NCBI GenBank assembly: GCA_000092065.1
Contig: CP000591.1
Length of the DNA: 64,000 nucleotides
Direction: 5' to 3' (one strand)
Source: Ostreococcus lucimarinus
Taxonomy: Eukaryota
A program made the translations under genes and the position numbers. This document shows positions 1-52,541 of the stretch, piece by piece; within the stretch, counting starts at the first letter, position 1; the number at the start of each line of letters is the position of its first letter. The notes beneath the pieces were generated by a model. That model searched no databases. It was not told the origin of the DNA and saw only the letters and a program-made list of their open reading frames with translations.

Positions 1-3000
1 GCGGCGGCGATTGGTTCGAGCTCGGTGATCTTTGGTACCGCTTTGGCGCTGAAAGTGATTCCGAGGCCGATGATGCAAGTGTTGGCCATCTTGCTCGCGT
101 CGACGGTGGCGCCGCTGTTGGGCGTATACGTCGAAGAGTTGCGTTTGCACCGTACGTCGACGAGGCGTACGAGACTGATGATATTGTCGGACTGCTCGCT
201 TTACGGTTCGTGGGACGCCGTCGCCGGCACTGTGGCGTGGGCATGCGCCTTCAACCAGTCCGCTGACGCCTTCGGCCCCGCGCTAGCGCAGAGTTCATTT
301 GTCGCGTTTATCGTCGCCGCCGCGTGTCGTTGGATGCGAGCCATGTACGTATTGTACGTTATCGATCACTGGATCATTCAGACGGTCGCCGCGATGTCGC
401 AAGAGTTCACAGAGACGGTGTCGCGAGCGACCGTTGTCGTTATGGAAGAAGTTTCGCGAGCGCCGATCGTCGTTAAGGAAACAGTTTCGCGAGTTTCTGT
501 CGCGATTGCGGAAACGGTGACCCAAACGCCCGACGTGGTTTCGCACAATGACGAATCTCCGCAACCAGTCGCAGAGCCGAAGATGCACGAACGCTCGGAC
601 AATAACGAAGCCGCCGTCGCGAGCGTAAAAATGCGGGTTGCGAGAGAACCTCAGCCAGTTGTCATGGAGTCGGCGCCTTCATCCGACGCCGCGCCTGTAG
701 CAGGCGAAAGCGTGAGTGTCACTCAGCAGCCCGATGAACGGCGTATTGAGTACGCGCCTCCGTATACCGCGGTAATTCGTGAGCAGGATCCTCGTCCAGA
801 ACCGCCGCGTGTCGTATACGCGCCCGCGTTTGTCGTGGTGGAAGAGGCATCGACGTCGTCTTCTACGGAATCCGACGTCACTCAACCGCTCGAGTCAAAG
901 CGTCGCCGTCGACAGCGGAAGCGACAGTATCGCCGCCGTGAGTCGCTGGCGAAGAATACTATAGACATGAGCGAGATTGTGTCGAAAGAAGTTAACATAG
1001 CGCTGAACATGGGCGTTTCGATTGAGGCGGAGCTTCAGCGCATGTTGGATCGACGTCAATCGACGCTGAACGACATGAAAAACCAGCAAGCGAATCCAAT
1101 TTCTATCGCGCAAGTGGAAGCGGATATTGCCGCGCTGCGTGCTGAGCTGAGACGAGCCACGACATCACGCGAACAATTTCAACGAGCTCAAACGTCGTAT
1201 GAGAGCGATCTAGAGATGTGGATGGAATCGATACGCGCGGCGGCGGCGGTCTCGCGATTGGACTACGCAATCGATTCACTAAAAAACGCATCGGTCGCCG
1301 ACGACCCGCAGGTCAAGGAACTCATTGATCAAAGGGCTGTTTGGGGGTTGCGTTTGGTCAGCTCTCAAATATTTACGATTGTTGAATTGCAGGATTCACT
1401 TGACTCTGGGGAAGCACGTTCTTCCGCGCGCATAGCAGAATTACGAGGAGCTATAGAAAGTTTGGAGCTCAAATTGACTCGTTTGCAAGAAGAAAAGACG
1501 CAGAGCGTCGATAACCGTATTCTTTTGGAGGATCGTCTGCAGAAATTGAATCTTGAAATCGATTCTGTTCGGGAAAGAGAGCGCGTTGCGCAAGAAGACT
1601 GGCAAAGAGAGCGCCTGCGCCTGGAAGTTGAGCTCGAAGCTTCAGTCAAGGAACTTCAAACTGCCACGAGAACCGTCGACGACGCTCTCAAGGCGAAGTT
1701 AGAACTCCTTGCTAAGCTGCAGACCGCTCAAGATCAGAGCGACACTGATGCAGAGGCGATTCGGCGTCTCGAACATGAAACTGAAACTCTGCAAACGAAG
1801 CTCAAGTCCCTCACCGAGCAGCTATCTGTCGCAAATGCTAGTGTTGAACAAATCAATTCGCGTCGATTTGACTTAGAATCGCAACTGCGAGCAAAGGCAA
1901 CTGAGTTAGACTTGGCAAACGCCAATCGTGCCGATACTTCATTAGTTGAAGAGCTGAGGCGTCAAGTGAAGAATCTATCTACGGAGATCTGTTGGCTCAG
2001 AGATCAAAAATCGAGAGAAGGAAGCGAAGCAGAAGCAGTACTTCAAAAGCAACTCGCAGAGGCTCGTACGCAACTCGAAATCCAGCGAAATGAATTAGAA
2101 ATCGAAGCCAAGGCTGAAATTTCCGAATTGAAGCGATCCATGGATGTTATCCGCGAGGAGATGGAACGTCTAACGTCGGAGATGTCAGAGAAGACTGAAA
2201 AGAGTTTAGAGTATCAACGAATAGTTCAAGAGCGTCAAAAAGAGATTGAAAGTCTTACGAAAAACAAAGAGTTGGCCGCTCGCGCAATCGATGAGTCAAA
2301 GAAAAACTTGGCTCAGGCTCAGGAAGCGCTGGAGACGAAGCAAAAAGCACTAGATGACCGTGTTTCTCAGGTTGCAAGCTTATCTTTGGATCTTGCAGCG
2401 AGTGAGGAGAAAACGCTCACTCTTGAGCGCGAACTCTCAGCATCATGTCAACGCTCACAAGAGCTCGAAGAACTCATCTCCAGTCTTCGCTCGTACTCAG
2501 AATCACGCGATGCCTTGCTTGCTGACATAGATTTACTTCTCGGCAACGAAAACGACGAGCGCGAAGCGATGTTACGAGGCAGTAAGAACGCATCTGACCT
2601 CGTTGAGCGCATACAGAAACGTCTTCGAAGAGAAGTTGTCCTCGAGAAGAAGCTTGACCAAGCTCAGCTGCTCGAACAGGTAGGTCTCACAGTCGAAGAA
2701 TTGAAAACACGTGAAGCCGCATCACTTTGGTGGAAGGATCTAGTTCAAATTGGTTCTAAGGCTCTGGAAACGATTCAGAGCACCGCAGTGGATCTATCTA
2801 AGGGGACAGTCACGGCTTCATTGTTAGAGCGATCGATCAGTCTACGAGCGAAAGAGCTGCAGAATATCACCAGCGAACCGCAATACCAGAGATTGCAAAA
2901 AAGCTTCAATGATCTGAAGCGTCTTTCCGAAGCCGCAGAGCGAAAGTTGCAAGAAAAAGAGCGAAAGATAAAATCATTGAAGGCCGATAGCAAAGAGTCA

Positions 3001-6000
3001 GCTGCGGAATTGAAGGCGCTTACCTCAGAATTGGCCTCCGTGAAAGAAGATCTTAAATACATCAGAGATATTGCAAAAGAAGAGCGTGATGAACAGATTC
3101 AGCGCATAGAATCTCTCATGTTAGAGGTTGATTCATTCGAAAACGCCAAATTTGATGGTGAAGAGGCAGTACGCTTTAGAAACGAAGCAGCGAAGCTTCG
3201 AGGGATGAAAATTCGGTTGGAAGCTGAGCTCAAGTTGAGTCAAGATCTCGCAGAGACAGCGAGCAGCGAACTGGCTCGAGCTCGCGAAGAGCACGATGTC
3301 GTCATCACGCAGTTGAGTGAAGAAATAGCAGCTCTTGAACTCGACATCACAGTTAAATCTGAAGCGATCGAAAAGTTGGAGTCAAAGACGAATAATATTG
3401 AGGTCAAGTTGGGCTCCGATCTTGAGAGCGCGTTAGCAAAACTGAACACCACGCTCGAAGAACTCGATAAAAAGTCCACGGATTTTGCATCTCTTGAAAG
3501 CGCATCGGTTGAACAAAAGCGAAACTTTGAGAAGCACGTGGACGAGCTTGAAAAGCGCCTGGGTGCTTCCGAGGCTGAAGTGCAAAGATTGATACAAGAT
3601 AGAGATCTGGCTATTGAGGCCAAAGACAACGAAATGGTTTCGAAAATTCTTTCGCAGTCCGCTATCGTGTCCGATCTCGAGTCTGAGCGCGACGCGCTGC
3701 GTTCGCAGCTCGCCGACCTTTCGTCCGCTCGCGACTCTGAGCTGGCGTCTGTGCGCGCGGATCTTGAGTCCCAGCTTCGCGAGCGCGAGGAGGACATCGA
3801 GCGCGTGCGTTCTGAGCTCGACGAGTCCAAGGCGGCACTTGAGTCTGAGCGCGACGCGCTGCAGTCGGAGCTCGAGCGCGTGCTTTCTCAGGTGCCCGAG
3901 GTTGACGCGTCGCAGTCCGCTATCGTGTCCGATCTCGAGTCTGAGCGCGACGCGCTGCGTTCGCAGCTCGCCGACCTTTCGTCCGCTCGCGACTCTGAGT
4001 TGGCGTCTGTGCGCGCGGATCTTGAGTCCCAGCTTCGCGAGCGCGAGGAGGACATCGAGCGCGTGCGTTCTGAGCTCGACGAGTCCAAGGCGGCACTTGA
4101 GTCTGAGCGCGACGCGCTGCAGTCGGAGCTCGAGCGCGTGCTTTCTCAGGTGCCCGAGGTTGACGCGTCGCAGTCCGCTGCCGTGTCCGATCTCGAGTCT
4201 GAGCGCGACGCGCTGCGTTCGCAGCTCGCCGACCTTTCGTCCGCTCGCGACTCTGAGTTGGCGTCTGTGCGCGCGGATCTTGAGTCCCAGCTTCGCGAGC
4301 GCGAGGAGGACATCGAGCGCGTGCGTTCTGAGCTCGACGAGTCCAAGGCGGCACTTGAGTCTGAGCGCGACGCGCTGCAGTCGGAGCTCGAGCGCGTGCT
4401 TTCTCAGGTGCCCGAGGTTGACGCGTCGCAGTCCGCTATCGTGTCCGATCTCGAGTCTGAGCGCGACGCGCTGCGTTCGCAGCTCGCCGACCTTTCGTCC
4501 GCTCGCGACTCTGAGTTGGCGTCTGTGCGCGCGGATCTTGAGTCCCAGCTTCGCGAGCGCGAGGAGGACATCGAGCGCGTGCGTTCTGAGCTCGACGAGT
4601 CCAAGGCGGCACTTGAGTCTGAGCGCGACGCGCTGCAGTCGGAGCTCGAGCGCGTGCTTTCTCAGGTGCCCGAGGTTGACGCGTCGCAGTCCGCTGCCGT
4701 GTCCGATCTCGAGTCTGAGCGCGACGCGCTGCGTTCGCAGCTCGCCGACCTTTCGTCCGCTCGCGACTCTGAGTTGGCGTCTGTGCGCGCGGATCTTGAG
4801 TCCCAGCTTCGCGAGCGCGAGGAGGACATCGAGCGCGTGCGTTCTGAGCTCGACGAGTCCAAGGCGGCACTTGAGTCTGAGCGCGACGCGCTGCAGTCGG
4901 AGCTCGAGCGCGTGCTTTCTCAGGTGCCCGAGGTTGACGCGTCGCAGTCCGCTATCGTGTCCGATCTCGAGTCTGAGCGCGACGCGCTGCGTTCGCAGCT
5001 CGCCGACCTTTCGTCCGCTCGCGACTCTGAGTTGGCGTCTGTGCGCGCGGATCTTGAGTCCCAGCTTCGCGAGCGCGAGGAGGACATCGAGCGCGTGCGT
5101 TCTGAGCTCGACGAGTCCAAGGCGGCACTTGAGTCTGAGCGCGACGCGCTGCAGTCGGAGCTCGAGCGCGTGCTTTCTCAGGTGCCCGAGGTTGACGCGT
5201 CGCAGTCCGCTGCCGTGTCCGATCTCGAGTCTGAGCGCGACGCGCTGCGTTCGCAGCTCGCCGACCTTTCGTCCGCTCGCGACTCTGAGTTGGCGTCTGT
5301 GCGCGCGGATCTTGAGTCCCAGCTTCGCGAGCGCGAGGAGGACATCGAGCGCGTGCGTTCTGAGCTCGACGAGTCCAAGGCGGCACTTGAGTCTGAGCGC
5401 GACGCGCTGCAGTCGGAGCTCGAGCGCGTGCTTTCTCAGGTGCCCGAGGTTGACGCGTCGCAGTCCGCTGCCGTGTCCGATCTCGAGTCTGAGCGCGACG
5501 CGCTGCGTTCGCAGCTCGCCGACCTTTCGTCCGCTCGCGACTCTGAGTTGGCGTCTGTGCGCGCGGATCTTGAGTCCCAGCTTCGCGAGCGCGAGGAGGA
5601 CATCGAGCGCGTGCGTTCTGAGCTCGACGAGTCCAAGGCGGCACTTGAGTCTGAGCGCGACGCGCTGCAGTCGGAGCTCGAGCGCGTGCTTTCTCAGGTG
5701 CCCGAGGTTGACGCGTCGCAGTCCGCTGCCGTGTCCGATCTCGAGTCTGAGCGCGACGCGCTGCGTTCGCAGCTCGCCGACCTTTCGTCCGCTCGCGACT
5801 CTGAGTTGGCGTCTGTGCGCGCGGATCTTGAGTCCCAGCTTCGCGAGCGCGAGGAGGACATCGAGCGCGTGCGTTCTGAGCTCGACGAGTCCAAGGCGGC
5901 ACTTGAGTCTGAGCGCGACGCGCTGCAGTCGGAGCTCGAGCGCGTGCTTTCTCAGGTGCCCGAGGTTGACGCGTCGCAGTCCGCTGCCATGTCCGATCTC

Positions 6001-9000
6001 GAGTCTGAGCGCGACGCGCTGCGTTCGCAGCTCTCTGAGCTTCGTCAAATGTCCTCCGAATCCATCGCAGGACTCCAGCAGCAATTAGTCGCATTTTCGG
6101 CGGAGGCGGACTCTGCGGCTTCCTTGAGAAAAACAGTTAAAGAGTTGAAGGCAACTATCAGACAGCGCGAAAATTTGCTTTCTGAAACGGTGTTCGATCC
6201 GATGTTGAATGATGACTTGGACCGTATGAACGATGAGCTTGCATCGAAGAGTGCGGAACTAGATTCTGCACGGACGAAGTTGCAGTCGACTCTTAATAAG
6301 TTAAAAGAACGCGAGGAGCAGGCTGAATCTTCGCAAGCTGTTGCAAGTGCTGTCATAGATGAGATCCGCGCCGAGCTTTTGAATGCAAACGAAAAGTTGG
6401 CTGCTCGTGAGTCATACGCCAACGCTGTTGAGTTGGCGCTGCGGTCAGAACTCACAGAAAGAGAGAAAGAAATTGCGCTTTTGCGTGTCAAGGTAGCTAA
6501 AATTCTCGATGACAGCACGAACAAGCAGACAAGTCTCACCACTGCGCTCGATTCTGCGCAGTCTGAGATTGAGCGCCTCACTCGCGAGCTCGAGGATGTT
6601 GAGCAGAGCAAGCAAGTGGCCATGAAGGAGTCATTTGAGCGCAACGAATCGCAGATTGCGTCTCTGAACGCCGCGCACCGCGAGTTGGATCAGCGCCTGC
6701 GAGACGAGCTCGACGCGGCGCTCAAAGCGAAGGCAAGTCTTGAGAAGGAGCTCAGCGACCGCGCGGAATCCACCGCTGCTACCGAAACAGCGAAGCGCAA
6801 CGCCGAAGCACTGAGCGAAAGCTTGCAATCGCAGCTTGATGCACTGTCCACGCAGCGTGCTGAGCTCGAGCAGCGGCTGGTCAAGCGCGAGGAGGAGCTC
6901 GTCGCTGAGCTTGACGCAGCCAAGCATGAAGCCACAGCGCAGGCCGCACGTTTTGCACAACTTGGCGAGGCGGCCTCAGATCACGCACACGACGAGGTTG
7001 ATAAACTTAAGTCCGAAGTGGAACGACTCGAGTTTGAGCTCGGCGCTGTGAAAAACGAGCTGACAAGCGCGACGTCGACTGCGAAAGCGGACATTGCGAG
7101 GCTTACGGATGAACTTGCAAGCGCCAGCGCCGCGCGAGACGCCGTGGCTGAAACCGCTCATCCAGAAGAAGACGGGTCATCGGAGTCCGCATCGGCGTTC
7201 GAAGCCATGAGACGCGACATGACTCGTCTCGAGTCGGAGCTTGCCGCCGCTCTCGCGGAGCTTGCGGAGCTCGAATCGCCTCGCGAGTCAGAGTCCTCAG
7301 ATACTGAAGCTATTCGCGAGTTCACCACTGCGCTCGATTCTGCGCAGTCTGAGATTGAGCGCCTCACTCGCGAGCTCGAGGATGTTGAGCAGAGCAAGCA
7401 AGTGGCCATGAAGGAGTCATTTGAGCGCAACGAATCGCAGATTGCGTCTCTGAACGCCGCGCACCGCGAGTTGGATCAGCGCCTGCGAGACGAGCTCGAC
7501 GCGGCGCTCAAAGCGAAGGCAAGTCTTGAGGAGCGCAGCGACCGCGCGGAATCCACCGCTGCTACCGAAACAGCGAAGCGCAACGCCGAAGCACTGAGCG
7601 AAAGCTTGCAATCGCAGCTTGATGCACTGTCCACGCAGCGTGCTGAGCTCGAGCAGCGGCTAGTCAAGCGCGAGGAGGAGCTCGTCGCTGAGCTTGACGC
7701 AGCCAAGCATGAAGCCACAGCGCAGGCCGCACGTTTTGCACAACTTGGCGAGGCGGCCTCAGATCACGCACACGACGAGGTTGATAAACTTAAGTCCGAA
7801 GTGGAACGACTCGAGTTTGAGCTCGGCGCTGTGAAAAACGAGCTGACAAGCGCGACGTCGACTGCGAAAGCGGACATTGCGAGGCTTACGGATGAACTTG
7901 CAAGCGCCAGCGCCGCGCGAGACGCCGTGGCTGAAACCGCTCATCCAGAAGAAGACGGGTCATCGGAGTCCGCATCGGCGTTCGAAGCCATGAGACGCGA
8001 CATGACTCGTCTCGAGTCGGAGCTTGCCGCCGCTCTCGCGGAGCTTGCGGAGCTCGAATCGCCTCGCGAGTCAGAGTCCTCAGATACTGAAGCTATTCGC
8101 GAGTTCACCACTGCGCTCGATTCTGCGCAGTCTGAGATTGAGCGCCTCACTCGCGAGCTCGAGGATGTTGAGCAGAGCAAGCAAGTGGCCATGAAGGAGT
8201 CATTTGAGCGCAACGAATCGCAGATTGCGTCTCTGAACGCCGCGCACCGCGAGTTGGATCAGCGCCTGCGAGACGAGCTCGACGCGGCGCTCAAAGCGAA
8301 GGCAAGTCTTGAGAAGGAGCGCAGCGACCGCGCGGAATCCACCGCTGCTACCGAAACAGCGAAGCGCAACGCCGAAGCACTGAGCGAAAGCTTGCAATCG
8401 CAGCTTGATGCACTGTCCACGCAGCGTGCTGAGCTCGAGCAGCGGCTAGTCAAGCGCGAGGAGGAGCTCGTCGCTGAGCTTGACGCAGCCAAGCATGAAG
8501 CCACAGCGCAGGCCGCACGTTTTGCACAACTTGGCGAGGCGGCCTCAGATCACGCACACGACGAGGTTGATAAACTTAAGTCCGAAGTGGAACGACTCGA
8601 GTTTGAGCTCGGCGCTGTGAAAAACGAGCTGACAAGCGCGACGTCGACTGCGAAAGCGGACATTGCGAGGCTTACGGATGAACTTGCAAGCGCCAGCGCC
8701 GCGCGAGACGCCGTGGCTGAAACCGCTCATCCAGAAGAAGACGGGTCATCGGAGTCTGCATCGGCGTTCGAAGCCATGAGACGCGACATGACTCGTCTCG
8801 AGTCGGAGCTTGCCGCCGCTCTCGCGGAGCTTGCGGAGCTCGAATCGCCTCGCGAGTCAGAGTCCTCAGATACTGAAGCTATTCGCGAGTTCACCACTGC
8901 GCTCGATTCTGCGCAGTCTGAGATTGAGCGCCTCACTCGCGAGCTCGAGGATGTTGAGCAGAGCAAGCAAGTGGCCATGAAGGAGTCATTTGAGCGCAAC

Positions 9001-10632
9001 GAATCGCAGATTGCGTCTCTGAACGCCGCGCACCGCGAGTTGGATCAGCGCCTGCGAGACGAGCTCGACGCGGCGCTCAAAGCGAAGGCAAGTCTTGAGA
9101 AGGAGCTCAGCGACCGCGCGGAATCCACCGCTGCTACCGAAATAGCGAAGCGCAACGCCGAAGCACTGAGCGAAAGCTTGCAATCGCAGCTTGATGCTTC
9201 TCGCGCTGAAGAGGCGAAGCTCCGTGATGAGCTCAATCATTTTCAGGAGCTTGCACGAGAGGAGATTTCAGCACTCCATAATGAAATTACCGAAATAAAA
9301 TTCACGTCGCAAGAAAGTCAAGCGTCGCTTGGAGAATCACCGTGGCCGAGTATCACAATTTCCACCCTTGCGGGTCTTAACGAGATGATGTCTCGGGGAT
9401 CTGAATTCGGGAGTGAAGGCTTAGATTGGCTTGAGCACGCCGCACACGAAGTACAAGCGCTTGAAAAGTCCGTGTTGGATGCGACGGCTGAGCTCGAGTT
9501 ACGAGAGAATGAATATGAACAAACTATTGCACAGTTGCAAGATAGTGTTCGTGACGCGGAAACTGACCTCAACTCGCAGAAGAGTCTGGCTAGCGCAGCT
9601 TTGAGCGACGTCGAGCATCTGAATGATAAATTGGCCGAACGCGATGAGGAGCTGGCATCACTCCGGCTCGAACTCGCGAACTTGGTTTCAGATGACGTCA
9701 CACGCGAGCTTGAATTAACGATCAGTAATTTGAGGATACAGCTGACCGCAAAAGATAACGAGTTGAATGGAGCTGTCGCGTCGTTGAATGATTTGGAAAA
9801 CGACAAGAGAGCTATAGAAGAAGCAATGTCCGAACTACAAGCTGCAGCTGACATGCAAGCAGCTCGAGTGCAAACATCGATTGAGCAAATATCAAGTTTG
9901 AATGTTGAGCTGGCCAAGCGCTCTGCAGCTCTTGATGCTAGTTGGGATAATCTTTCTCACGCTGAATCACGCGCACGTTTTGCCGAGCAAGAGCGAGACG
10001 ACGTTCGCCGGCTTTTTGAGGAGCGACTTGCTGTGAAAGAGCGAGCACTACGCGAGACACAAGGAGATGTTGAACATCTTCGTCAGACGGTGCGTAATCT
10101 TCAGGATAAATTGAAAGCACATAGATATGCACGTTCTGAGACCGAAGCTGGTCATCCAGAAGAAGACGGGTCATCGGAGTCTGCATCGGCGTTCGAAGCC
10201 ATGAGACGCGACATGACTCGTCTCGAGTCGGAGCTTGCCGCCGCTCTCGCGGAGCTTGCGGAGCTCGAATCGCCTCGCGAGTCAGAGTCCTCAGATACTG
10301 AAGCTATTCGCGAGTTCACCACTGCGCTCGATTCTGCGCAGTCTGAGATTGAGCGCCTCACTCGCGAGCTCGAGGATGTTGAGCAGAGCAAGCAAGTGGC
10401 CATGAAGGAGTCATTTGAGCGCAACGAATCGCAGATTGCGTCTCTGAACGCCGCGCACCGCGAGTTGGATCAGCGCCTGCGAGACGAGCTCGACGCGGCG
10501 CTCAAAGCGAAGGCAAGTCTTGAGAAGGAGCTCAGCGACCGCGCGGAATCCACCGCTGCTACCGAAACAGCGAAGCGCAACGCCGAAGCACTGAGCGAAA
10601 GCTTGCAATCGCAGCTTGATGGAAAAACTTGA
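1..10632 (+). CDS. Giant coiled-coil repeat protein, 5' portion. The frame-1 ORF is open from the window edge, so the gene is truncated at its 5' end. It carries N-terminal hydrophobic segments and long heptad-rich repeats, and ends at a 1-nt frame break that probably joins it to the 10619..17740 ORF.
   Basis: There is no stop in frame 1 from nt 1. The start at 25 in the ORF track is a GTG, so the ORF continues upstream. Translation is E/L/R/A/S/Q-rich with heptad periodicity, as expected for coiled coil. It contains the 258-bp and about 783-bp in-frame tandem repeat arrays. The same repeat units continue in frame in the downstream ORF. Confidence 0.8.
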   Translation, partial: AAAIGSSSVIFGTALALKVIPRPMMQVLAILLASTVAPLLGVYVEELRLHRTSTRRTRLMILSDCSLYGSWDAVAGTVAWACAFNQSADAFGPALAQSSFVAFIVAAACRWMRAMYVLYVIDHWIIQTVAAMSQEFTETVSRATVVVMEEVSRAPIVVKETVSRVSVAIAETVTQTPDVVSHNDESPQPVAEPKMHERSDNNEAAVASVKMRVAREPQPVVMESAPSSDAAPVAGESVSVTQQPDERRIEYAPPYTAVIREQDPRPEPPRVVYAPAFVVVEEASTSSSTESDVTQPLESKRRRRQRKRQYRRRESLAKNTIDMSEIVSKEVNIALNMGVSIEAELQRMLDRRQSTLNDMKNQQANPISIAQVEADIAALRAELRRATTSREQFQRAQTSYESDLEMWMESIRAAAAVSRLDYAIDSLKNASVADDPQVKELIDQRAVWGLRLVSSQIFTIVELQDSLDSGEARSSARIAELRGAIESLELKLTRLQEEKTQSVDNRILLEDRLQKLNLEIDSVRERERVAQEDWQRERLRLEVELEASVKELQTATRTVDDALKAKLELLAKLQTAQDQSDTDAEAIRRLEHETETLQTKLKSLTEQLSVANASVEQINSRRFDLESQLRAKATELDLANANRADTSLVEELRRQVKNLSTEICWLRDQKSREGSEAEAVLQKQLAEARTQLEIQRNELEIEAKAEISELKRSMDVIREEMERLTSEMSEKTEKSLEYQRIVQERQKEIESLTKNKELAARAIDESKKNLAQAQEALETKQKALDDRVSQVASLSLDLAASEEKTLTLERELSASCQRSQELEELISSLRSYSESRDALLADIDLLLGNENDEREAMLRGSKNASDLVERIQKRLRREVVLEKKLDQAQLLEQVGLTVEELKTREAASLWWKDLVQIGSKALETIQSTAVDLSKGTVTASLLERSISLRAKELQNITSEPQYQRLQKSFNDLKRLSEAAERKLQEKERKIKSLKADSKESAAELKALTSELASVKEDLKYIRDIAKEERDEQIQRIESLMLEVDSFENAKFDGEEAVRFRNEAAKLRGMKIRLEAELKLSQDLAETASSELARAREEHDVVITQLSEEIAALELDITVKSEAIEKLESKTNNIEVKLGSDLESALAKLNTTLEELDKKSTDFASLESASVEQKRNFEKHVDELEKRLGASEAEVQRLIQDRDLAIEAKDNEMVSKILSQSAIVSDLESERDALRSQLADLSSARDSELASVRADLESQLREREEDIERVRSELDESKAALESERDALQSELERVLSQVPEVDASQSAIVSDLESERDALRSQLADLSSARDSELASVRADLESQLREREEDIERVRSELDESKAALESERDALQSELERVLSQVPEVDASQSAAVSDLESERDALRSQLADLSSARDSELASVRADLESQLREREEDIERVRSELDESKAALESERDALQSELERVLSQVPEVDASQSAIVSDLESERDALRSQLADLSSARDSELASVRADLESQLREREEDIERVRSELDESKAALESERDALQSELERVLSQVPEVDASQSAAVSDLESERDALRSQLADLSSARDSELASVRADLESQLREREEDIERVRSELDESKAALESERDALQSELERVLSQVPEVDASQSAIVSDLESERDALRSQLADLSSARDSELASVRADLESQLREREEDIERVRSELDESKAALESERDALQSELERVLSQVPEVDASQSAAVSDLESERDALRSQLADLSSARDSELASVRADLESQLREREEDIERVRSELDESKAALESERDALQSELERVLSQVPEVDASQSAAVSDLESERDALRSQLADLSSARDSELASVRADLESQLREREEDIERVRSELDESKAALESERDALQSELERVLSQVPEVDASQSAAVSDLESERDALRSQLADLSSARDSELASVRADLESQLREREEDIERVRSELDESKAALESERDALQSELERVLSQVPEVDASQSAAMSDLESERDALRSQLSELRQMSSESIAGLQQQLVAFSAEADSAASLRKTVKELKATIRQRENLLSETVFDPMLNDDLDRMNDELASKSAELDSARTKLQSTLNKLKEREEQAESSQAVASAVIDEIRAELLNANEKLAARESYANAVELALRSELTEREKEIALLRVKVAKILDDSTNKQTSLTTALDSAQSEIERLTRELEDVEQSKQVAMKESFERNESQIASLNAAHRELDQRLRDELDAALKAKASLEKELSDRAESTAATETAKRNAEALSESLQSQLDALSTQRAELEQRLVKREEELVAELDAAKHEATAQAARFAQLGEAASDHAHDEVDKLKSEVERLEFELGAVKNELTSATSTAKADIARLTDELASASAARDAVAETAHPEEDGSSESASAFEAMRRDMTRLESELAAALAELAELESPRESESSDTEAIREFTTALDSAQSEIERLTRELEDVEQSKQVAMKESFERNESQIASLNAAHRELDQRLRDELDAALKAKASLEERSDRAESTAATETAKRNAEALSESLQSQLDALSTQRAELEQRLVKREEELVAELDAAKHEATAQAARFAQLGEAASDHAHDEVDKLKSEVERLEFELGAVKNELTSATSTAKADIARLTDELASASAARDAVAETAHPEEDGSSESASAFEAMRRDMTRLESELAAALAELAELESPRESESSDTEAIREFTTALDSAQSEIERLTRELEDVEQSKQVAMKESFERNESQIASLNAAHRELDQRLRDELDAALKAKASLEKERSDRAESTAATETAKRNAEALSESLQSQLDALSTQRAELEQRLVKREEELVAELDAAKHEATAQAARFAQLGEAASDHAHDEVDKLKSEVERLEFELGAVKNELTSATSTAKADIARLTDELASASAARDAVAETAHPEEDGSSESASAFEAMRRDMTRLESELAAALAELAELESPRESESSDTEAIREFTTALDSAQSEIERLTRELEDVEQSKQVAMKESFERNESQIASLNAAHRELDQRLRDELDAALKAKASLEKELSDRAESTAATEIAKRNAEALSESLQSQLDASRAEEAKLRDELNHFQELAREEISALHNEITEIKFTSQESQASLGESPWPSITISTLAGLNEMMSRGSEFGSEGLDWLEHAAHEVQALEKSVLDATAELELRENEYEQTIAQLQDSVRDAETDLNSQKSLASAALSDVEHLNDKLAERDEELASLRLELANLVSDDVTRELELTISNLRIQLTAKDNELNGAVASLNDLENDKRAIEEAMSELQAAADMQAARVQTSIEQISSLNVELAKRSAALDASWDNLSHAESRARFAEQERDDVRRLFEERLAVKERALRETQGDVEHLRQTVRNLQDKLKAHRYARSETEAGHPEEDGSSESASAFEAMRRDMTRLESELAAALAELAELESPRESESSDTEAIREFTTALDSAQSEIERLTRELEDVEQSKQVAMKESFERNESQIASLNAAHRELDQRLRDELDAALKAKASLEKELSDRAESTAATETAKRNAEALSESLQSQLDGKT
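408..545 (+). repeat. Imperfect 33-39 bp coding mini-repeats encoding E(T/E)VSRA.(V/I)VV, about 4 units
   Basis: Direct reading shows acagagacggtgtcgcgagcgaccgttgtcgtt / gaagtttcgcgagcgccgatcgtcgtt / acagtttcgcgagtttctgtcgcgatt. Translation shows ETVSRATVVV / EEVSRAPIVV / ETVSRVSVAI. Confidence 0.5.
3652..6033 (+). repeat. Tandem array of about 9.2 copies of a 258-bp (86-aa) in-frame coding repeat, here called repeat A. Copies are more than 99% identical.
   Basis: The period of 258 nt was read directly; for example tccgct(a/g)(t/c)cgtgtccgatctcgagtctgagcgcgacgcgctgcg recurs at 3659, 3917, 4175, 4433 and so on. Each unit encodes SQSA(I/A)VSDLESERDALRSQLADLSSARDSELASVRADLESQLREREEDIERVRSELDESKAALESERDALQSELERVLSQVPEVDA. 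Copies differ only by an atc/gcc (I/A) codon, and the last copy has A->M. Confidence 0.9.
6538..9190 (+). repeat. Tandem array of about 3.4 copies of a 783-786 bp (261/262-aa) in-frame coding repeat, here called repeat B
   Basis: Unit starts (accactgcgctcgattctgcgcagtctgagattgagcgc) lie at about 6538, 7324, 8107 and 8893. Copies are near-identical apart from an in-frame 3-nt indel (KELSDR versus EERSDR/KERSDR) and T/I substitutions. The array ends where the sequence diverges after cagcttgatgc at about 9190. Confidence 0.85.
10150..10619 (+). repeat. Partial copy of repeat B (about 470 bp, the 3' 60% of a unit), separated from the main B array by about 960 bp of unique coding sequence
   Basis: catccagaagaagacgggtcatcggagtc ... 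gcttgcaatcgcagcttgatg is nearly identical to 7157-7626, 7940-8409 and 8723-9192. Confidence 0.8.
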
Positions 10633-13600
10633 GTCATTGCGCCGTGAGCACGAAACAAAACTGAACGACATGCGTGAGTCTGCAACACAACAACGCGCGG
10701 ATCTTGAGTCCCAGCTTCGCGAGCGCGAGGAGGACATCGAGCGCGTGCGTTCTGAGCTCGACGAGTCCAAGGCGGCACTTGAGTCTGAGCGCGACGCGCT
10801 GCAGTCGGAGCTCGAGCGCGTGCTTTCTCAGGTGTCTGAGTCTGAGTCTCTGCAGTCCGCTGCCGTGTCCGATCTCGAGTCTGAGCGCGACGCGCTGCGT
10901 TCGCAGCTCGCCGACCTTTCGTCCGCTCGCGACTCTGAGTTGGCGTCTGTGCGCGCGGATCTTGAGTCCCAGCTTCGCGAGCGCGAGGAGGACATCGAGC
11001 GCGTGCGTTCTGAGCTCGACGAGTCCAAGGCGGCACTTGAGTCTGAGCGCGACGCGCTGCAGTCGGAGCTCGAGCGCGTGCTTTCTCAGGTGTCTGAGTC
11101 TGAGTCTCTGCAGTCCGCTGCCGTGTCCGATCTCGAGTCTGAGCGCGACGCGCTGCGTTCGCAGCTCGCCGACCTTTCGTCCGCTCGCGACTCTGAGTTG
11201 GCGTCTGTGCGCGCGGATCTTGAGTCCCAGCTTCGCGAGCGCGAGGAGGACATCGAGCGCGTGCGTTCTGAGCTCGACGAGTCCAAGGCGGCACTTGAGT
11301 CTGAGCGCGACGCGCTGCAGTCGGAGCTCGAGCGCGTGCTTTCTCAGGTGTCTGAGTCTGAGTCTCTGCAGTCCGCTGCCGTGTCCGATCTCGAGTCTGA
11401 GCGCGACGCGCTGCGTTCGCAGCTCGCCGACCTTTCGTCCGCTCGCGACTCTGAGTTGGCGTCTGTGCGCGCGGATCTTGAGTCCCAGCTTCGCGAGCGC
11501 GAGGAGGACATCGAGCGCGTGCGTTCTGAGCTCGACGAGTCCAAGGCGGCACTTGAGTCTGAGCGCGACGCGCTGCAGTCGGAGCTCGAGCGCGTGCTTT
11601 CTCAGGTGTCTGAGTCTGAGTCTCTGCAGTCCGCTGCCGTGTCCGATCTCGAGTCTGAGCGCGACGCGCTGCGTTCGCAGCTCGCCGACCTTTCGTCCGC
11701 TCGCGACTCTGAGTTGGCGTCTGTGCGCGCGGATCTTGAGTCCCAGCTTCGCGAGCGCGAGGACGACATCGAGCGCGTGCGTTCTGAGCTCGACGAGTCC
11801 AAGGCGGCACTTGAGTCTGAGCGCGACGCGCTGCAGTCGGAGCTCGAGCGCGTGCTTTCTCAGGTGCCCGAGGTTGACGCGTCGCAGTCCGCTGCCGTGT
11901 CCGATCTCGAGTCTGAGCGCGACGCGCTGCGTTCGCAGCTCGCCGACCTTTCGTCCGCTCGCGACTCTGAGTTGGCGTCTGTGCGCGCGGATCTTGAGTC
12001 CCAGCTTCGCGAGCGCGAGGAGGACATCGAGCGCGTGCGTTCTGAGCTCGACGAGTCCAAGGCGGCACTTGAGTCTGAGCGCGACGCGCTGCAGTCGGAG
12101 CTCGAGCGCGTGCTTTCTCAGGTGCCCGAGGTTGACGCGTCGCAGTCCGCTGCCGTGTCCGATCTCGAGTCTGAGCGCGACGCGCTGCGTTCGCAGCTCG
12201 CCGACCTTTCGTCCGCTCGCGACTCTGAGTTGGCGTCTGTGCGCGCGGATCTTGAGTCCCAGCTTCGCGAGCGCGAGGAGGACATCGAGCGCGTGCGTTC
12301 TGAGCTCGACGAGTCCAAGGCGGCACTTGAGTCTGAGCGCGACGCGCTGCAGTCGGAGCTCGAGCGCGTGCTTTCTCAGGTGCCCGAGGTTGACGCGTCG
12401 CAGTCCGCTGCCGTGTCCGATCTCGAGTCTGAGCGCGACGCGCTGCGTTCGCAGCTCGCCGACCTTTCGTCCGCTCGCGACTCTGAGTTGGCGTCTGTGC
12501 GCGCGGATCTTGAGTCCCAGCTTCGCGAGCGCGAGGAGGACATCGAGCGCGTGCGTTCTGAGCTCGACGAGTCCAAGGCGGCACTTGAGTCTGAGCGCGA
12601 CGCGCTGCAGTCGGAGCTCGAGCGCGTGCTTTCTCAGGTGCCCGAGGTTGACGCGTCGCAGTCCGCTGCCGTGTCCGATCTCGAGTCTGAGCGCGACGCG
12701 CTGCGTTCGCAGCTCGCCGACCTTTCGTCCGCTCGCGACTCTGAGTTGGCGTCTGTGCGCGCGGATCTTGAGTCCCAGCTTCGCGAGCGCGAGGAGGACA
12801 TCGAGCGCGTGCGTTCTGAGCTCGACGAGTCCAAGGCGGCACTTGAGTCTGAGCGCGACGCGCTGCAGTCGGAGCTCGAGCGCGTGCTGGGAGAGTTGAG
12901 TCAGTCGACTTCGGCGCTTCGGCGCGTTGAGGAGGATCTCAATGCCGCTTTAAGCGACCGCGATGAGTTCGAAGAAGAGAGTGATCGTTTGCGTCGGCGT
13001 CTACCACGACTTGAACGAGAGCATAACGAGTTGGAGGATGCAATGCGCTTGGAAATGGACGAATTGGCTTCAAAGCTTGCAGCGATGTCAAAAGCGCGCG
13101 ATGATCTCGAGAAGGACATGATTGAGCAGAGTGATGGTCTGTACAAGGCACTTGGCAGTAGCCGCGAGGATCTGCAGCGAGAACTAAACGAGGGCAAGAA
13201 GTTACTTGCTCAACGTGAGGCCGAGCTAAAGCGTTTAACTGCCGATTTTTCGTTGAAAGAGCACGCAATTGAGTCTGAGCGAGAAGCACTTGCGACCGAA
13301 TTGGATCGACTGATACACAAGGTGCCAGCCTTGGAGTTGACTACGGCTGAACTAGAGGCTGAACGCGCGGAGTTGCGCGAAAAGCTTGATGATTTGATAG
13401 CAAATCGTGATCAGCTGGCGGCCAATCTGCGAACCGAGAACGATTCGATGTCAGCAGAACTGTCCATGACTCGAGAAGCTCTTGATGAACAATTCAATGC
13501 CGTTACAACACAGCTCCTTGAAACCGATGAGATCATCGACAAGATGCGCAAGGATAACGAAGCTGCAAAGGAAGCAGCAGAGAACGACCGCTTAGCGCTA

Positions 13601-16600
13601 CAAGGTGAGCTTGAGCGCGTGGTGTCGGAATCAAATAAGCTGCGGGCAGCTCAAGCCACGGCCGAGTCTCTTCTACGCGCAGAGCGTGATGATCTCGAAG
13701 ACAAGGTCGAAAAACTTGAGTCATTGCGCCGTGAGCACGAAACAAAACTGAACGACATGCGTGAGTCTGCAACACAACAACGCGCGGATCTTGAGTCCCA
13801 GCTTCGCGAGCGCGAGGAGGACATCGAGCGCGTGCGTTCTGAGCTCGACGAGTCCAAGGCGGCACTTGAGTCTGAGCGCGACGCGCTGCAGTCGGAGCTC
13901 GAGCGCGTGCTTTCTCAGGTGTCTGAGTCTGAGTCTCTGCAGTCCGCTGCCGTGTCCGATCTCGAGTCTGAGCGCGACGCGCTGCGTTCGCAGCTCGCCG
14001 ACCTTTCGTCCGCTCGCGACTCTGAGTTGGCGTCTGTGCGCGCGGATCTTGAGTCCCAGCTTCGCGAGCGCGAGGAGGACATCGAGCGCGTGCGTTCTGA
14101 GCTCGACGAGTCCAAGGCGGCACTTGAGTCTGAGCGCGACGCGCTGCAGTCGGAGCTCGAGCGCGTGCTTTCTCAGGTGCCCGAGGTTGACGCGTCGCAG
14201 TCCGCTGCCGTGTCCGATCTCGAGTCTGAGCGCGACGCGCTGCGTTCGCAGCTCGCCGACCTTTCGTCCGCTCGCGACTCTGAGTTGGCGTCTGTGCGCG
14301 CGGATCTTGAGTCCCAGCTTCGCGAGCGCGAGGAGGACATCGAGCGCGTGCGTTCTGAGCTCGACGAGTCCAAGGCGGCACTTGAGTCTGAGCGCGACGC
14401 GCTGCAGTCGGAGCTCGAGCGCGTGCTGGGAGAGTTGAGTCAGTCGACTTCGGCGCTTCGGCGCGTTGAGGAGGATCTCAATGCCGCTTTAAGCGACCGC
14501 GATGAGTTCGAAGAAGAGAGTGATCGTTTGCGTCGGCGTCTACCACGACTTGAACGAGAGCATAACGAGTTGGAGGATGCAATGCGCTTGGAAATGGACG
14601 AATTGGCTTCAAAGCTTGCAGCGATGTCAAAAGCGCGCGATGATCTCGAGAAGGACATGATTGAGCAGAGTGATGGTCTGTACAAGGCACTTGGCAGTAG
14701 CCGCGAGGATCTGCAGCGAGAACTAAACGAGGGCAAGAAGTTACTTGCTCAACGTGAGGCCGAGCTAAAGCGTTTAACTGCCGATTTTTCGTTGAAAGAG
14801 CACGCACTTGAGTCTGAGCGAGAAGCACTTGCGACCGAATTGGATCGACTGATACACAAGGTGCCAGCCTTGGAGTTGACTGCGGCTGAACTAGAGGCTG
14901 AACGCGCGGAGTTGCGCGAAAAGCTTGATGATTTGATAGCAAATCGTGATCAGCTGGCGGCCAATCTGCGAACCGAGAACGATTCGATGTCAGCAGAACT
15001 GTCCATGACTCGAGAAGCTCTTGATGAACAATTCAATGCCGTTACAACACAGCTCCTTGAAACCGATGAGATCATCGACAAGATGCGCAAGGATAACGAA
15101 GCTGCAAAGGAAGCAGCAGAGAACGACCGCTTAGCGCTACAAGGTGAGCTTGAGCGCGTGGTGTCGGAATCAAATAAGCTGCGGGCAGCTCAAGCCACGG
15201 CCGAGTCTCTTCTACGCGCAGAGCGTGATGATCTCGAAGACAAGGTCGAAAAACTTGAGTCATTGCGCCGTGAGCACGAAACAAAACTGAACGACGTGCG
15301 TGAGTCTGCAACACAACAACGCGCGGATCTTGAGTCCCAGCTTCGCGAGCGCGAGGAGGACATCGAGCGCGTGCGTTCTGAGCTCGACGAGTCCAAGGCG
15401 GCACTTGAGTCTGAGCGCGACGCGCTGCAGTCGGAGCTCGAGCGCGTGCTTTCTCAGGTGTCTGAGTCTGAGTCTCTGCAGTCCGCTGCCGTGTCCGATC
15501 TCGAGTCTGAGCGCGACGCGCTGCGTTCGCAGCTCGCCGACCTTTCGTCCGCTCGCGACTCTGAGTTGGCGTCTGTGCGCGCGGATCTTGAGTCCCAGCT
15601 TCGCGAGCGCGAGGAGGACATCGAGCGCGTGCGTTCTGAGCTCGACGAGTCCAAGGCGGCACTTGAGTCTGAGCGCGACGCGCTGCAGTCGGAGCTCGAG
15701 CGCGTGCTTTCTCAGGTGTCTGAGTCTGAGTCTCTGCAGTCCGCTGCCGTGTCCGATCTCGAGTCTGAGCGCGACGCGCTGCGTTCGCAGCTCGCCGACC
15801 TTTCGTCCGCTCGCGACTCTGAGTTGGCGTCTGTGCGCGCGGATCTTGAGTCCCAGCTTCGCGAGCGCGAGGAGGACATCGAGCGCGTGCGTTCTGAGCT
15901 CGACGAGTCCAAGGCGGCACTTGAGTCTGAGCGCGACGCGCTGCAGTCGGAGCTCGAGCGCGTCATGGACGACGTTCTGAACGCAGAAGCGCTTGCGGAG
16001 CAAGCTGAGCTTATACGCTCGCAGATGCAGGCGGACATGGAGCAACTTGTTGAAGCGCGACAAAGTGTTGAGCAGCGTTTGCAGGATGTGGACAGTGCTC
16101 TTCAGATTTCTTTGAACAAGGTTGCCACGCTTGAGATTGAGCAAGAAAGATTGCGACTCGAACTCTCCGCTTCCGAGAAAGCCTTAGCCGAAAGTGAACG
16201 TGCTAGGTCAGAATCAGACGCAGAAATTCTGGCGCTTAGCGACGAGCTGTCGGACGCTTTGAATGCACGGTTACTTATTGAGCAACGACTTCGTGCGCGC
16301 GACGAGGAACTGGAGACCGCGCGCATCAAACAATCTGAATTAATTACGGAGAATTCAAAGCTCCGAGCTGAACTCATGGATGCCAAAGCAATGGCAGACG
16401 ATTACACTCGGCAGTTGTCTTCAGGGCTATTCGGCGATGAAAAGCGTGTCGAGGCTGGAATTCAACGATTTGACTCTTTCGAGGCGTCGGACACTGGTAT
16501 ATTTGCCACAGACGAAGCAGACGAAGCTTTCGTGACCGCCTGCAATATGGTGCAACGAATTGAAATCTTAGTTCGTCGACAAAAGCAAACGGGCGAAGAA

Positions 16601-17740: not shown

Positions 17741-17820
17741 GGAATGCATGCGATCACGGCAAACGATCGCCATAGCGCGCACCATAGCATTTAGATGTAC
17801 ACGATGAATGTGTCTAGAAA

Positions 17821-52215: not shown

Positions 52216-52541
52216 CACCGTTAGTCGATAGAAATGTAGAACGCGCGCCGCGCGCCGAATGTCGGCGCGAGCGACGAAGCCGAACCACTCAACGCGTCCC
52301 AATAATCCACCTCACACGACGACTCGCGCGCGCCGCGCCCGCCGCGCGACGCGCCGAGCGCTCGACGCGAAGCGAACGCACCGCGCGATCGACAGCGGTA
52401 GCTCTCTCTCCCGCGCGCGACCGCGTCGACGTTCCGCGGCGCGTGAAAGTCGCGCCAAAAATAGTTGCGCGCGACACAGAAGACGCGCTCGCGGCGCGCG
52501 CCGACGCGCGCTCGGCTCGAGATCGCGAACAGACGCTCGTG

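What the first reader, a model, noticed from the sequence alone, without database searches (positions are those of the whole stretch)
6538..10619. About 783-bp coding repeat B with in-frame 3-nt indel alleles and a displaced partial copy
About 3.4 tandem copies lie at 6538-9190. Unit lengths are 786, 783 and 786 bp, differing by one in-frame codon (KELSDR versus EERSDR/KERSDR). A further 0.6 copy at 10150-10619 follows about 960 bp of unique sequence. That partial copy ends precisely at the frame-break junction, tying the rearrangement and the frame break together.
Basis: seen in the sequence. Interest (0 to 1): 0.5.

Follow-up and report, generated by a model that had tools for sequence, protein, structure and literature searches.

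The report
Repeat block and broken join in giant gene
The 786-bp repeat is a real, recently homogenised building block of a giant membrane-anchored, starch-binding rod protein gene of the tiny green alga Ostreococcus. The frame break after the partial copy is a deletion-type join that skips several kilobases of conserved coding sequence seen in related assemblies, and is either an assembly fault or a strain-specific gene disruption.

Summary
Repeat B occupies 6532-9197 with units of 786, 783 and 786 bp plus 311 bp. A 470-bp partial copy lies at 10152-10621 and ends exactly where the reading frame breaks.

The window is Ostreococcus lucimarinus nuclear DNA. B is a helical module inside one giant gene of about 6,000 codons. 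That gene has N-terminal transmembrane helices, a long coiled coil and a C-terminal CBM20 starch-binding domain. Relatives encode it as one continuous ORF.

B copies are 99.2-100% identical within a genome but only 95% identical to a sister lineage, which indicates concerted evolution. B on both sides of the unique segment U2 is ancestral, so the partial copy is not really "displaced".

The abnormal part is what follows it. Two related assemblies continue in frame from B into a conserved 614-nt segment (U3), a long 258-bp array and segment D. The window instead jumps with no homology, and one base out of frame, into the last 72 nt of the D-C unit. At least 3.4 kb is missing.

I lean towards an assembly collapse or forced join (about 0.5) over a genuine strain-specific deletion (about 0.37). 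Reads or PCR would settle it. As a finding it is ordinary; the gene family itself is uncharacterised and mildly interesting.

The parts
1..3651 (+). N-terminal unique part of the giant gene. The start codon lies about 117 codons upstream of the window. Contains transmembrane-like helices followed by non-repetitive coiled coil.
   Evidence: ORF 25-10632. P0067 extends the same protein 117 aa upstream. There are at least four hydrophobic 19-residue stretches in the first 230 aa.
3652..6046 (+). First 258-bp (86-codon) repeat array A, 9.2-9.3 copies, all of the 'PEVDAS' type.
   Evidence: TRF; module map.
6047..6531 (+). Unique segment U1.
   Evidence: Self-blastn. Homologous at the same relative position in L013 and P0073.
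6532..7317 (+). B unit 1 (786 nt; sub-modules h, m, t; KELSDR).
7318..8100 (+). B unit 2 (783 nt; lacks one AGA codon between 7528 and 7529; E-ERSDR).
8101..8886 (+). B unit 3 (786 nt; KERSDR).
8887..9196 (+). B unit 4, sub-module h only (310 nt; KELSDR; carries a private C-to-T change giving Thr-to-Ile).
9197..10151 (+). Unique segment U2 (955 nt). It occupies the place of sub-module m between an h and a t.
   Evidence: Homologues in L013 (32% aa), P0073 (41% aa), L023 (94% nt) and L024 (91% nt).
10152..10621 (+). Distal partial B copy (t + h, 470 nt), 99.8% identical to 8727-9196. It is the start of the conserved second B block.
10619..10632 (+). Junction. B ends at 10621 and segment C starts at 10622, with no microhomology and a +1 frame offset. 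An ATG at 10619-10621 is created in the downstream frame, and TGA at 10630-10632 ends the upstream frame.
10622..10693 (+). Orphan segment C: the last 72 nt of the D-C unit, here without its D.
   Evidence: In every other copy, C is preceded by D: window 13709 and 15248, and all C copies in L006, L007, L023 and L025.
10694..12888 (+). 258-bp array A', 8.5 copies (four 'SESESL' units followed by four 'PEVDAS' units).
12889..15963 (+). Two copies of the 1539-bp higher-order unit, D (820 nt) - C (72 nt) - A' (2.5 units).
15964..17740 (+). Unique C-terminal region, with a CBM20 starch-binding domain at about 16928-17116 and a stop codon at 17738-17740.
   Evidence: Pfam PF00686, E 7e-8, 32.6 bits against a cut-off of 23.3.

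Best explanation
**What B is.** Repeat B is a 262-residue alpha-helical module of one giant gene of Ostreococcus lucimarinus. As written in the window the gene is about 18 kb (about 6,000 codons). It encodes an N-terminal multi-pass membrane anchor, a very long coiled coil built from amplified modules (A, B, D-C), and a C-terminal CBM20 starch-binding domain.

**How the repeat behaves.** The B copies are kept nearly identical within a genome by unequal crossing-over or gene conversion. This includes the copy on the far side of the unique segment U2. The one-codon indel and four point differences are young variants that have not yet been homogenised.

**The partial copy.** The copy at 10152-10621 is the beginning of the conserved second B block. 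In related assemblies this block runs in frame into unique segment U3, then a long A array, then D-C.

**The junction.** In the window that continuation is missing. Depending on which relative is the model, the missing stretch is at least 3.4 kb and probably 5-7 kb. B is butted without homology, one base out of frame, onto the last 72 nt of a D-C unit. As written, the locus cannot make the intact protein.

**My lean.** I think the join is most likely an assembly fault, either a contig end trimmed at a repeat boundary and then joined, or a collapsed path, rather than the organism's true sequence.

**Shown:** the anatomy, concerted evolution, the conserved architecture, the absence of U3, and the non-homologous +1 junction.

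**Inferred:** the homogenisation mechanism, artefact rather than real deletion, and the protein's role as a membrane-to-starch tether.
For: **Species and gene**
- The window's Prp8 is 100% identical over 2320 aa to O. lucimarinus CCE9901 XP_001420401.
- The gene carries CBM20 above the Pfam threshold and TM-like stretches.
- A single-sequence AlphaFold2 model of t-h-m-t gives helices 7-38, 47-197, 199-261 and 270-301. Breaks fall at the Pro/Ser-rich linkers.
- The distant orthologue P0073 is one uninterrupted 4091-aa ORF with the same module order.

**Concerted evolution**
- B copies are 99.2-100% identical within the window, within L024 and within L013.
- Window versus L024 is 95%. Window versus L013 is not alignable as DNA.

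**Second B block and its continuation**
- L023 is colinear with window 7351-10621, then continues m-t-h'(1-249)-U3-A(x13)-D-C-A'-tail in one ORF.
- L024/P0099 reads U2-t-h'-U3 in one 3783-aa ORF starting at the Met.
- U3 has a positional homologue in L013 (E 9e-16) and no match anywhere in the window.

**Junction**
- It shows zero microhomology and a +1 frame offset.
- C is preceded by D in every other copy.
- In L006, which is 99.9% identical to the window over 17.3 kb with no gaps, the equivalent C is preceded by D and the ORF stays open for 14,964 nt.

**Support for an artefact**
- The left breakpoint falls within 1 nt of the point where h is followed by either m or U2. That is a branch point of the repeat graph, and a random deletion end would land there about 1 time in 260-790.
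- Every independent assembly of this gene has a different, often collapsed, structure (L001, L004, L005, L025, L006, L007).
Against: - No reads or independent same-strain assembly across 10621|10622 could be obtained, so an artefact is not demonstrated.
- An overlap-based assembler normally cannot create a junction with no homology unless a read, clone or manual join supports it.
- The rest of the window is indel-free against two independent assemblies: 0 gaps in 17.3 kb versus L006 and 0 gaps in 12.6 kb versus L004. The assembly is otherwise accurate.
- L023 and L024 are diverged sister lineages, shown by the third-codon-position bias of their mismatches. They come from error-prone long-read metagenome assemblies.
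- Their consensus in repeats may be artificially homogenised. They prove the ancestral layout, not the layout of this strain.
- The right breakpoint (D|C) is not a repeat-graph branch point, which the artefact model does not explain.
Confidence: 0.5

Rival explanations
1. The junction is real. The sequenced strain carries a non-homologous (end-joining type) deletion of m-t-h'-U3-A array-D. This truncates the protein after about 3,650 residues, removing the CBM20 end, and makes the gene a strain-specific null or hypomorphic allele.
For: - The junction is abrupt with no homology, as expected of an illegitimate deletion.
- Two deletions in three would be out of frame.
- The window is otherwise indel-free against independent assemblies.
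- The gene is structurally hypervariable among same-species contigs. L006 has four D units, L007 has two, and L025 lacks U1-B-U2-U3 entirely. Real structural alleles are therefore plausible.
- A long-cultured clonal strain could tolerate loss of such a gene (inference).
Against: - The left breakpoint coincides to within 1 nt with the h|m / h|U2 branch point, which a random deletion would hit less than 0.5% of the time.
- The gene is conserved as an intact ORF from distant relatives (P0073) to sister lineages (P0099).
- No independent contig or protein in the searched collections carries the junction, although those searches were uninformative.
Confidence: 0.37
2. The layout is native and only a single-base sequencing error (an extra G, or an extra A in GGAAAAA) breaks the frame. 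The true sequence would read ...SQLD(E/G)KLESLRREHE... in frame.
For: Removing one base at 10621-10627 restores a continuous ORF. Long-read assemblies of the orthologues do carry such errors: L013 at about 21600 is out of frame where the short-read protein P0074 is in frame.
Against: - The junction joins non-homologous modules and skips conserved U3 and D, which every informative relative has. A one-base fix would still leave a derived, deleted layout.
- The window shows no indels in about 30 kb of comparison with other assemblies.
Confidence: 0.04
3. The break is real and functional. One possibility is +1 recoding at ACU-UGA (10627-10632), which would give ...SQLDGKT-ESLRREHE... Another is that the two halves are made separately, the second starting from the ATG created at 10619. 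A third is that an intron removes 3n+1 nt.
For: The stop lies only three codons after the junction, and any +1 shift in 10621-10632 restores the frame. An ATG lies exactly at the junction in the downstream frame.
Against: - No relative has this junction, so there is no conservation of a shift site.
- The flanking sequences are ordinary coding sequence in their other copies, which argues against an intron.
- Eukaryotic translation of a downstream ORF after 10 kb is unlikely (established knowledge).
- The one apparent 'conserved frame break' in L013 proved to be an assembly indel.
Confidence: 0.04

Closest known systems
Chlamydomonas coiled-coil + CBM20 starch proteins (BSG1; SAGA1)
   Same: Both are non-enzymatic proteins that combine long predicted coiled coil with a CBM20 starch-binding module in a chlorophyte. 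BSG1 is described in this way in bioRxiv 10.1101/2024.10.03.616402. SAGA1 is cited from my own knowledge.
   Different: The Ostreococcus protein is several times longer (about 4,100-6,000+ aa). It has an N-terminal multi-pass membrane anchor, and most of its length is built from recently amplified tandem modules.
Arabidopsis MFP1 / PTST2 starch-granule initiation proteins
   Same: Functional analogy only. MFP1 is a thylakoid-anchored coiled-coil protein and PTST2 is a coiled-coil protein with a carbohydrate-binding module. Together they position starch granule initiation (summarised). The Ostreococcus protein combines an anchor, a coiled coil and a CBM in one chain.
   Different: MFP1, PII1 and the SS4 complex are reported absent from chlorophytes. 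PTST2 carries CBM48, not CBM20. The AMPK1_CBM/CBM48-like Pfam model scores below threshold here (20.9 bits against 26.8). No homology is claimed.
Coding tandem and higher-order repeats kept uniform by concerted evolution (unequal crossing-over or gene conversion), as in many giant coiled-coil and surface-antigen genes
   Same: - Units are more alike within a genome than between lineages.
- Copy number differs between lineages and assemblies.
- Indels are in frame and units are codon-multiple lengths (786, 783 and 258 nt).
- Higher-order units are present (1539 nt).
   Different: Nothing unusual. The one notable feature is that homogenisation spans a 955-nt non-repeat spacer (U2), seen in at least two lineages (window; L013 Ba versus Bb 100% identical).
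Repeat-boundary misjoins or collapses in genome assemblies
   Same: - The left end of the junction sits at a repeat-graph branch point.
- Conserved unique sequence (U3) is missing.
- All other assemblies of this gene disagree in structure.
- Short-read scaffolds collapse it to 2-2.4 kb of repeats.
   Different: Typical collapses join homologous repeat copies seamlessly and in frame, as in L025. This junction has no homology, which is atypical for an automatic assembler.

Membership tests
CBM20 starch-binding domain proteins (Pfam PF00686) | A match to the CBM_20 profile above Pfam's gathering score. | tested here: met
   E 7e-8, 32.6 bits against a cut-off of 23.3, residues 323-385 of window:15962-17737. 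Homologues P0001-P0013 also carry PF00686.
Tandem coding repeat under concerted evolution | Paralogous units within a genome are more similar to each other than to orthologous units in a related lineage. | tested here: met
   Within-genome identity is 99.2-100% in the window, L024 and L013. Window versus L024 is 95%. Window versus L013 is unalignable as DNA. Caveat: long-read consensus may over-homogenise the copies in L013 and L024.
Tandem coding repeat under concerted evolution | Units are contiguous, head to tail, with lengths that are multiples of three and an open frame throughout. | tested here: met
   Spacings are 786, 783 and 786. There is no stop in 6532-10629 in the ORF1 frame.
Chlamydomonas BSG1/SAGA1-type coiled-coil CBM20 proteins | Architecture of long coiled coil plus CBM20. 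| tested here: met
   This is architecture only.
Chlamydomonas BSG1/SAGA1-type coiled-coil CBM20 proteins | Sequence homology outside the CBM20 domain, and plastid or starch localisation. | not tested
Localisation needs an experiment.
SMC / 'chromosome segregation ATPase' (JGI's name for orthologue P0070) | Walker A/B ATPase head domains flanking the coiled coil. | tested here: not met
   Pfam finds no SMC_N, AAA or ABC domain in 25-3651, 6046-10629 or 15962-17737. The name reflects coiled-coil composition only.
Programmed +1 ribosomal frameshift site | A shift site and frame arrangement conserved in relatives. | tested here: not met
   No relative has the B|C junction. L023 and P0099 read on in frame into U3, and P0073 is a single ORF.
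Spliceosomal intron bridging the frames | A splice junction supported by transcripts. | not testable with these tools
   No RNA data were available. The flanks are coding in their paralogous copies.
Assembly misjoin or collapse | Absence of read support for the junction, and presence of the skipped sequence in the strain's reads. | not testable with these tools
   There was no access to reads. Indirect evidence only: the breakpoint sits at a repeat branch point, U3 is missing, and assemblies are discordant.

The most novel reading that the evidence does not exclude
The gene family is a previously undescribed Mamiellales-specific tether. It is conserved from distant relatives (P0073) to O. lucimarinus. 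Its architecture is a multi-pass membrane anchor, then 4,000-6,000+ residues of coiled coil, then a CBM20.

At about 0.15 nm per residue its contour length (0.6-0.9 um) would equal the diameter of the cell. It could position or partition the single starch granule of Ostreococcus. Copy number of the A, B and D-C modules would then set the tether length and vary between strains.

Under this reading the structural differences among contigs are real alleles, and the window's junction is a natural truncating allele.
Probability: 0.2. Interest if true: 0.65.

Novelty: new member of a known kind. Interest (0 to 1): 0.3.

Why it matters
The repeat itself is an ordinary example of concerted evolution in a repetitive coiled-coil gene.

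Two practical points follow:
- The reference-type sequence of this locus probably does not represent an intact gene. Any gene model here (two ORFs, or models that bridge the break with an invented intron) should be treated with suspicion. Copy-number or selection analyses on it would be unsafe until long reads confirm the structure.
- The gene is conserved, is the largest in its neighbourhood, and combines a membrane anchor with a starch-binding domain. Chlorophytes lack the streptophyte granule-initiation complex, and Ostreococcus partitions a single granule at division. The gene is therefore a reasonable candidate for that unexplained process, but this is inference only.

Tried and rejected
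- **TRF:** it cannot see a period of 786 because its maximum is 500. I used the repeat finder and blastn instead.
- **Protein word-index search with U2+t+h:** it returned nothing. It was probably swamped by coiled-coil words, since the exhaustive HMMER search later found P0072-P0076.
- **JGI metagenome scans:** the junction pattern with 0-4 nt of slack gave 0 hits. The 20-mer from the B end gave only 8 unrelated chance hits. That collection holds no B sequence, so the zero says nothing about the junction.
- **Exact-product look-ups:** ORF2 from ATG 10619 is not on record. The NCBI-length Prp8 model returned only a metagenome scaffold. The window's own assembly could not be identified or re-fetched.
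- **IMG/VR scan with U2+B:** nothing.
- **Same-species long contigs L006 and L007:** the 10-kb flank limit stops short of B. Their 4988-aa and 5216-aa products could not be retrieved.
- **A conserved frame break:** L013 has an ORF break just after a post-U2 B head. This was rejected. B simply continues in another frame there, and the short-read protein P0074 reads through in frame. It is a long-read indel.
- **A single-base error at a native junction:** rejected as the main explanation once U3 and D were shown to be skipped.
- **NAHR as the cause of the junction:** rejected, because there is no homology at the breakpoints. Protein-level similarity between the start of U2 and the end of D plus C is weak and out of register (my own inspection).
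- **L023 as the same strain with sequencing errors:** rejected, because its mismatches are biased to third codon positions (74/17/242 in Prp8).
- **The O. lucimarinus genome paper:** not held in the library, so the finishing method is unknown to me beyond memory.
Full report
**1. The observation**

Self-comparison of window 1-18500 and the repeat finder show a head-to-tail array at 6532-9197. Start-to-start spacings are 786, 783 and 786 nt, with a final 311-nt partial unit, giving 3.39 copies. TRF did not report it only because its longest period is 500.

In a MAFFT alignment the units differ at five positions plus one missing AGA codon in unit 2.

After 955 nt of unique sequence (9197-10151) there is a 470-nt copy at 10152-10621. 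It differs from 8727-9196 by one base. B homology stops at G10621. From G10622 the sequence is that found at 13709 and 15248.

The upstream ORF (25-10632) meets TGA at 10630. The downstream ORF (10616-17740, 2374 codons) is in the +1 frame.

**2. What the sequence belongs to**

The neighbouring genes are eukaryotic and intron-free: Prp8, a MyTH4-FERM kinesin-14 and a Rad50-like protein. The window's Prp8 is 100% identical over 2320 residues to O. lucimarinus CCE9901 XP_001420401, and 95.7% identical to O. mediterraneus. The window is O. lucimarinus or an essentially identical strain.

The two long ORFs are halves of one gene. Its start lies about 117 codons upstream of the window (P0067). Its N-terminus has at least four transmembrane-like stretches. 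Its C-terminus carries a CBM20 starch-binding domain above Pfam's threshold. Nothing else in it matches a Pfam family above threshold.

A distant orthologue, P0073, is a single 4091-residue ORF. Its module order is the same: N-terminus, U1, B-like x2, U2, A/D-like, CBM20 tail.

**3. Anatomy**

I divided the B unit into three sub-modules by where copies start and stop: h (nt 1-310), m (311-626) and t (627-786). The window then reads:

N-term - A(x9) - U1 - (h m t)x3 - h - U2 - t - h | C - A'(x8.5) - D - C - A'(2.5) - D - C - A'(2.5) - tail.

U2 sits where an m would be. A single-sequence AlphaFold2 model of t-h-m-t (mean pLDDT 82) is almost entirely helical. It has helices 7-38, 47-197, 199-261 and 270-301. 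The breaks fall at the two Pro/Ser/acidic linkers of t, ESPRESES and HPEEDGSS. B is thus about 215 residues of near-continuous helix plus a short helix between two flexible linkers.

**4. Why the copies are so alike**

| Comparison | Identity |
|---|---|
| B copies within the window | 99.2-99.5% |
| B copies within sister-lineage contig L024 | 99.9-100% |
| B copies within more distant Ostreococcus contig L013 | 99.4-100% |
| Window versus L024 | 95% |
| Window versus L013 | not alignable as DNA (42-60% at protein level) |

Paralogues that are more alike than orthologues are the signature of concerted evolution. In L013 the copy before U2 and the copy after it are 100% identical over 527 nt, so homogenisation crosses the U2 spacer there too.

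One caveat applies. L013, L023 and L024 are long-read metagenome contigs, and their consensus may over-homogenise repeats. The window itself keeps copy-specific variants.

**5. The partial copy is not displaced**

B-type sequence follows U2 in every Ostreococcus lineage I could examine:
- L013 has B - U2 - B - B.
- L023 has U2 - t h m t h'.
- L024/P0099 has U2 - t h'.

Only the most distant relatives (P0073, P0075) lack B after U2. The pre-U2 count, three units plus a partial one, is the same in L024 as in the window, which supports the window's copy number there.

**6. What is abnormal**

L023 is colinear with window 7351-10621. It then continues with m, t and a truncated h' that ends at ...SDRAESTAA. 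Next comes a unique 614-nt segment, U3, starting PHGASGDDEELRRQLHSALAAIEESEAKRMEL... After that come thirteen A units, D, C, A' and the tail. All of this lies in one ORF (L023 2740-9876).

P0099 is a 3783-residue ORF from the start codon of a sister lineage. It shows the same h'|U3 junction. U3 also has a homologue at the corresponding place in L013 (34% aa, E 9e-16), but it has no match in the window by blastn or tblastn.

In the window, C (72 nt) is the tail of the D-C unit, and every other C in all contigs is preceded by D. Relative to the conserved layout, the window therefore lacks m-t-h'-U3, an A array and a D. That is at least 3.4 kb using the shortest observed array and about 5.6 kb using L023's. 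The two ends are joined with no microhomology and a +1 frame offset. One base fewer would restore a frame, but it would not restore the missing conserved sequence. A simple base-call error is therefore not the explanation.

**7. Real or artefact?**

I could not obtain reads or a same-strain assembly across the junction.

For a real deletion:
- The junction is abrupt, as illegitimate deletions are.
- The window shows no indels against L006 (17.3 kb) or L004 (12.6 kb).

For an artefact:
- (a) The left breakpoint lies within 1 nt of the place where h is followed by either m or U2. That is the branch point of the repeat graph, and also the point at which a walk U2 - t - h would begin to re-enter U2. 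A random deletion end would land there less than 0.5% of the time.
- (b) In L006, the same-species contig closest to the window, the equivalent C is preceded by D and the ORF stays open 14,964 nt upstream of the stop.
- (c) No two assemblies of this gene agree.
  - Short-read scaffolds collapse it to one or two A units (L001, L004, L005, P0067, P0096).
  - The long-read contig L025 merges the two A arrays and drops U1-B-U2-U3 entirely.
  - L006 breaks inside the gene.
  - L007, L013 and L023 carry indel errors.

Against an artefact: automatic assemblers rarely create homology-free joins, and the right breakpoint is not a branch point.

I put an assembly fault at about 0.5, a genuine strain-specific truncating deletion at about 0.37, and the remainder on a base error or some functional recoding, splicing or two-ORF arrangement.

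**8. Comparison with what is known**

The repeat behaviour is standard for repetitive coiled-coil genes. The protein architecture resembles the Chlamydomonas coiled-coil + CBM20 proteins. BSG1 is described that way in bioRxiv 10.1101/2024.10.03.616402; SAGA1 I cite from memory. Functionally it resembles the Arabidopsis MFP1/PTST2 pair, which chlorophytes lack.

It differs in three ways: it carries its own membrane anchor, it is several-fold longer, and it is built from young tandem modules. I did not test sequence homology to those proteins. JGI's label 'chromosome segregation ATPase' for orthologue P0070 is not supported, because no ATPase domain is present.

**9. Verdict**

The repeat is an ordinary concerted-evolution module. 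The frame break is a deletion-type junction that most likely reflects a fault in the assembly, or else a strain-specific lesion. Nothing points to a new mechanism.

Interest is low to moderate. The main value is a warning about this locus in the reference-type sequence. It also points to an uncharacterised, conserved, very long membrane-to-starch coiled-coil protein in the smallest free-living eukaryotes.

Noticed in passing
window 3652-6046, 10694-12888, 13781-14427, 15320-15963: A 258-bp (86-codon) coding repeat occurs in four arrays. It has two unit types, 'SQVPEVDAS' and 'SQVSESESL'. The last arrays are embedded in a 1539-bp higher-order unit (D-C-A'). Numbers of units and of D-C modules differ in every same-species contig: L006 has four D, L007 two, L025 two and L023 one.
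   Followed up: partly
L025 10001-23700 (ENA ERZ10646592 contig_26746): This O. lucimarinus-type long-read contig is 99.7-100% identical in the N-terminal region. Its gene goes N-term - A(x16) - D - C ... and has no U1, B, U2 or U3 at all. It is either an in-frame natural deletion allele produced by recombination between the two A arrays, or an assembly collapse.
   Followed up: partly
L024 20473-20881 and L023 2826-4020: In sister lineages the unique DNA is 5-9% diverged from the window, yet the post-U2 B pieces are 99.2-100% identical to the window's B units. The A, D and C modules of L023 are also about 99.5% identical. Their own pre-U2 B copies are only 94-96% identical. Possible causes are a chimeric metagenome consensus, introgression, or an unusual constraint.
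   Followed up: no
window 37454-41965 (-): A 1504-aa ORF combines a calcineurin-like phosphoesterase match (Metallophos, residues 325-407) with Rad50/SbcC-type ATPase head motifs (SMC_N, AAA_23, SbcC Walker B). It looks like a nuclease-ATPase fusion in one chain.
   Followed up: no
window 52059-56201 (+): A kinesin-14 with an N-terminal MyTH4-FERM domain and a C-terminal motor (KCBP-like architecture), apparently intron-free.
   Followed up: no
window 421-493 and 19188-19253: Two short in-frame tandem repeats. One has a 33-bp unit in 2.2 copies in the N-terminal region of the giant gene (ETVSRA-type motif). The other has a 24-bp unit in 2.8 copies inside the 395-aa ORF at 18579-19766.
   Followed up: no
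L003 9505-9900; L013 about 21600 and several other sites; L023 Prp8 region: The nanopore/pilon-type metagenome contigs of related Ostreococcus carry many single-base indels that fragment long ORFs. Prp8 in L023 is split into seven or more pieces. ORF breaks in those records should not be read as biology.
   Followed up: yes
P0072 (ENA, 617-nt contig): This is the only high-identity B-containing protein in the 1.84-billion representative library. It ends in 'LSLIHI', which to my knowledge is the translation of a Nextera adapter remnant. The contig carries untrimmed adapter.
   Followed up: no
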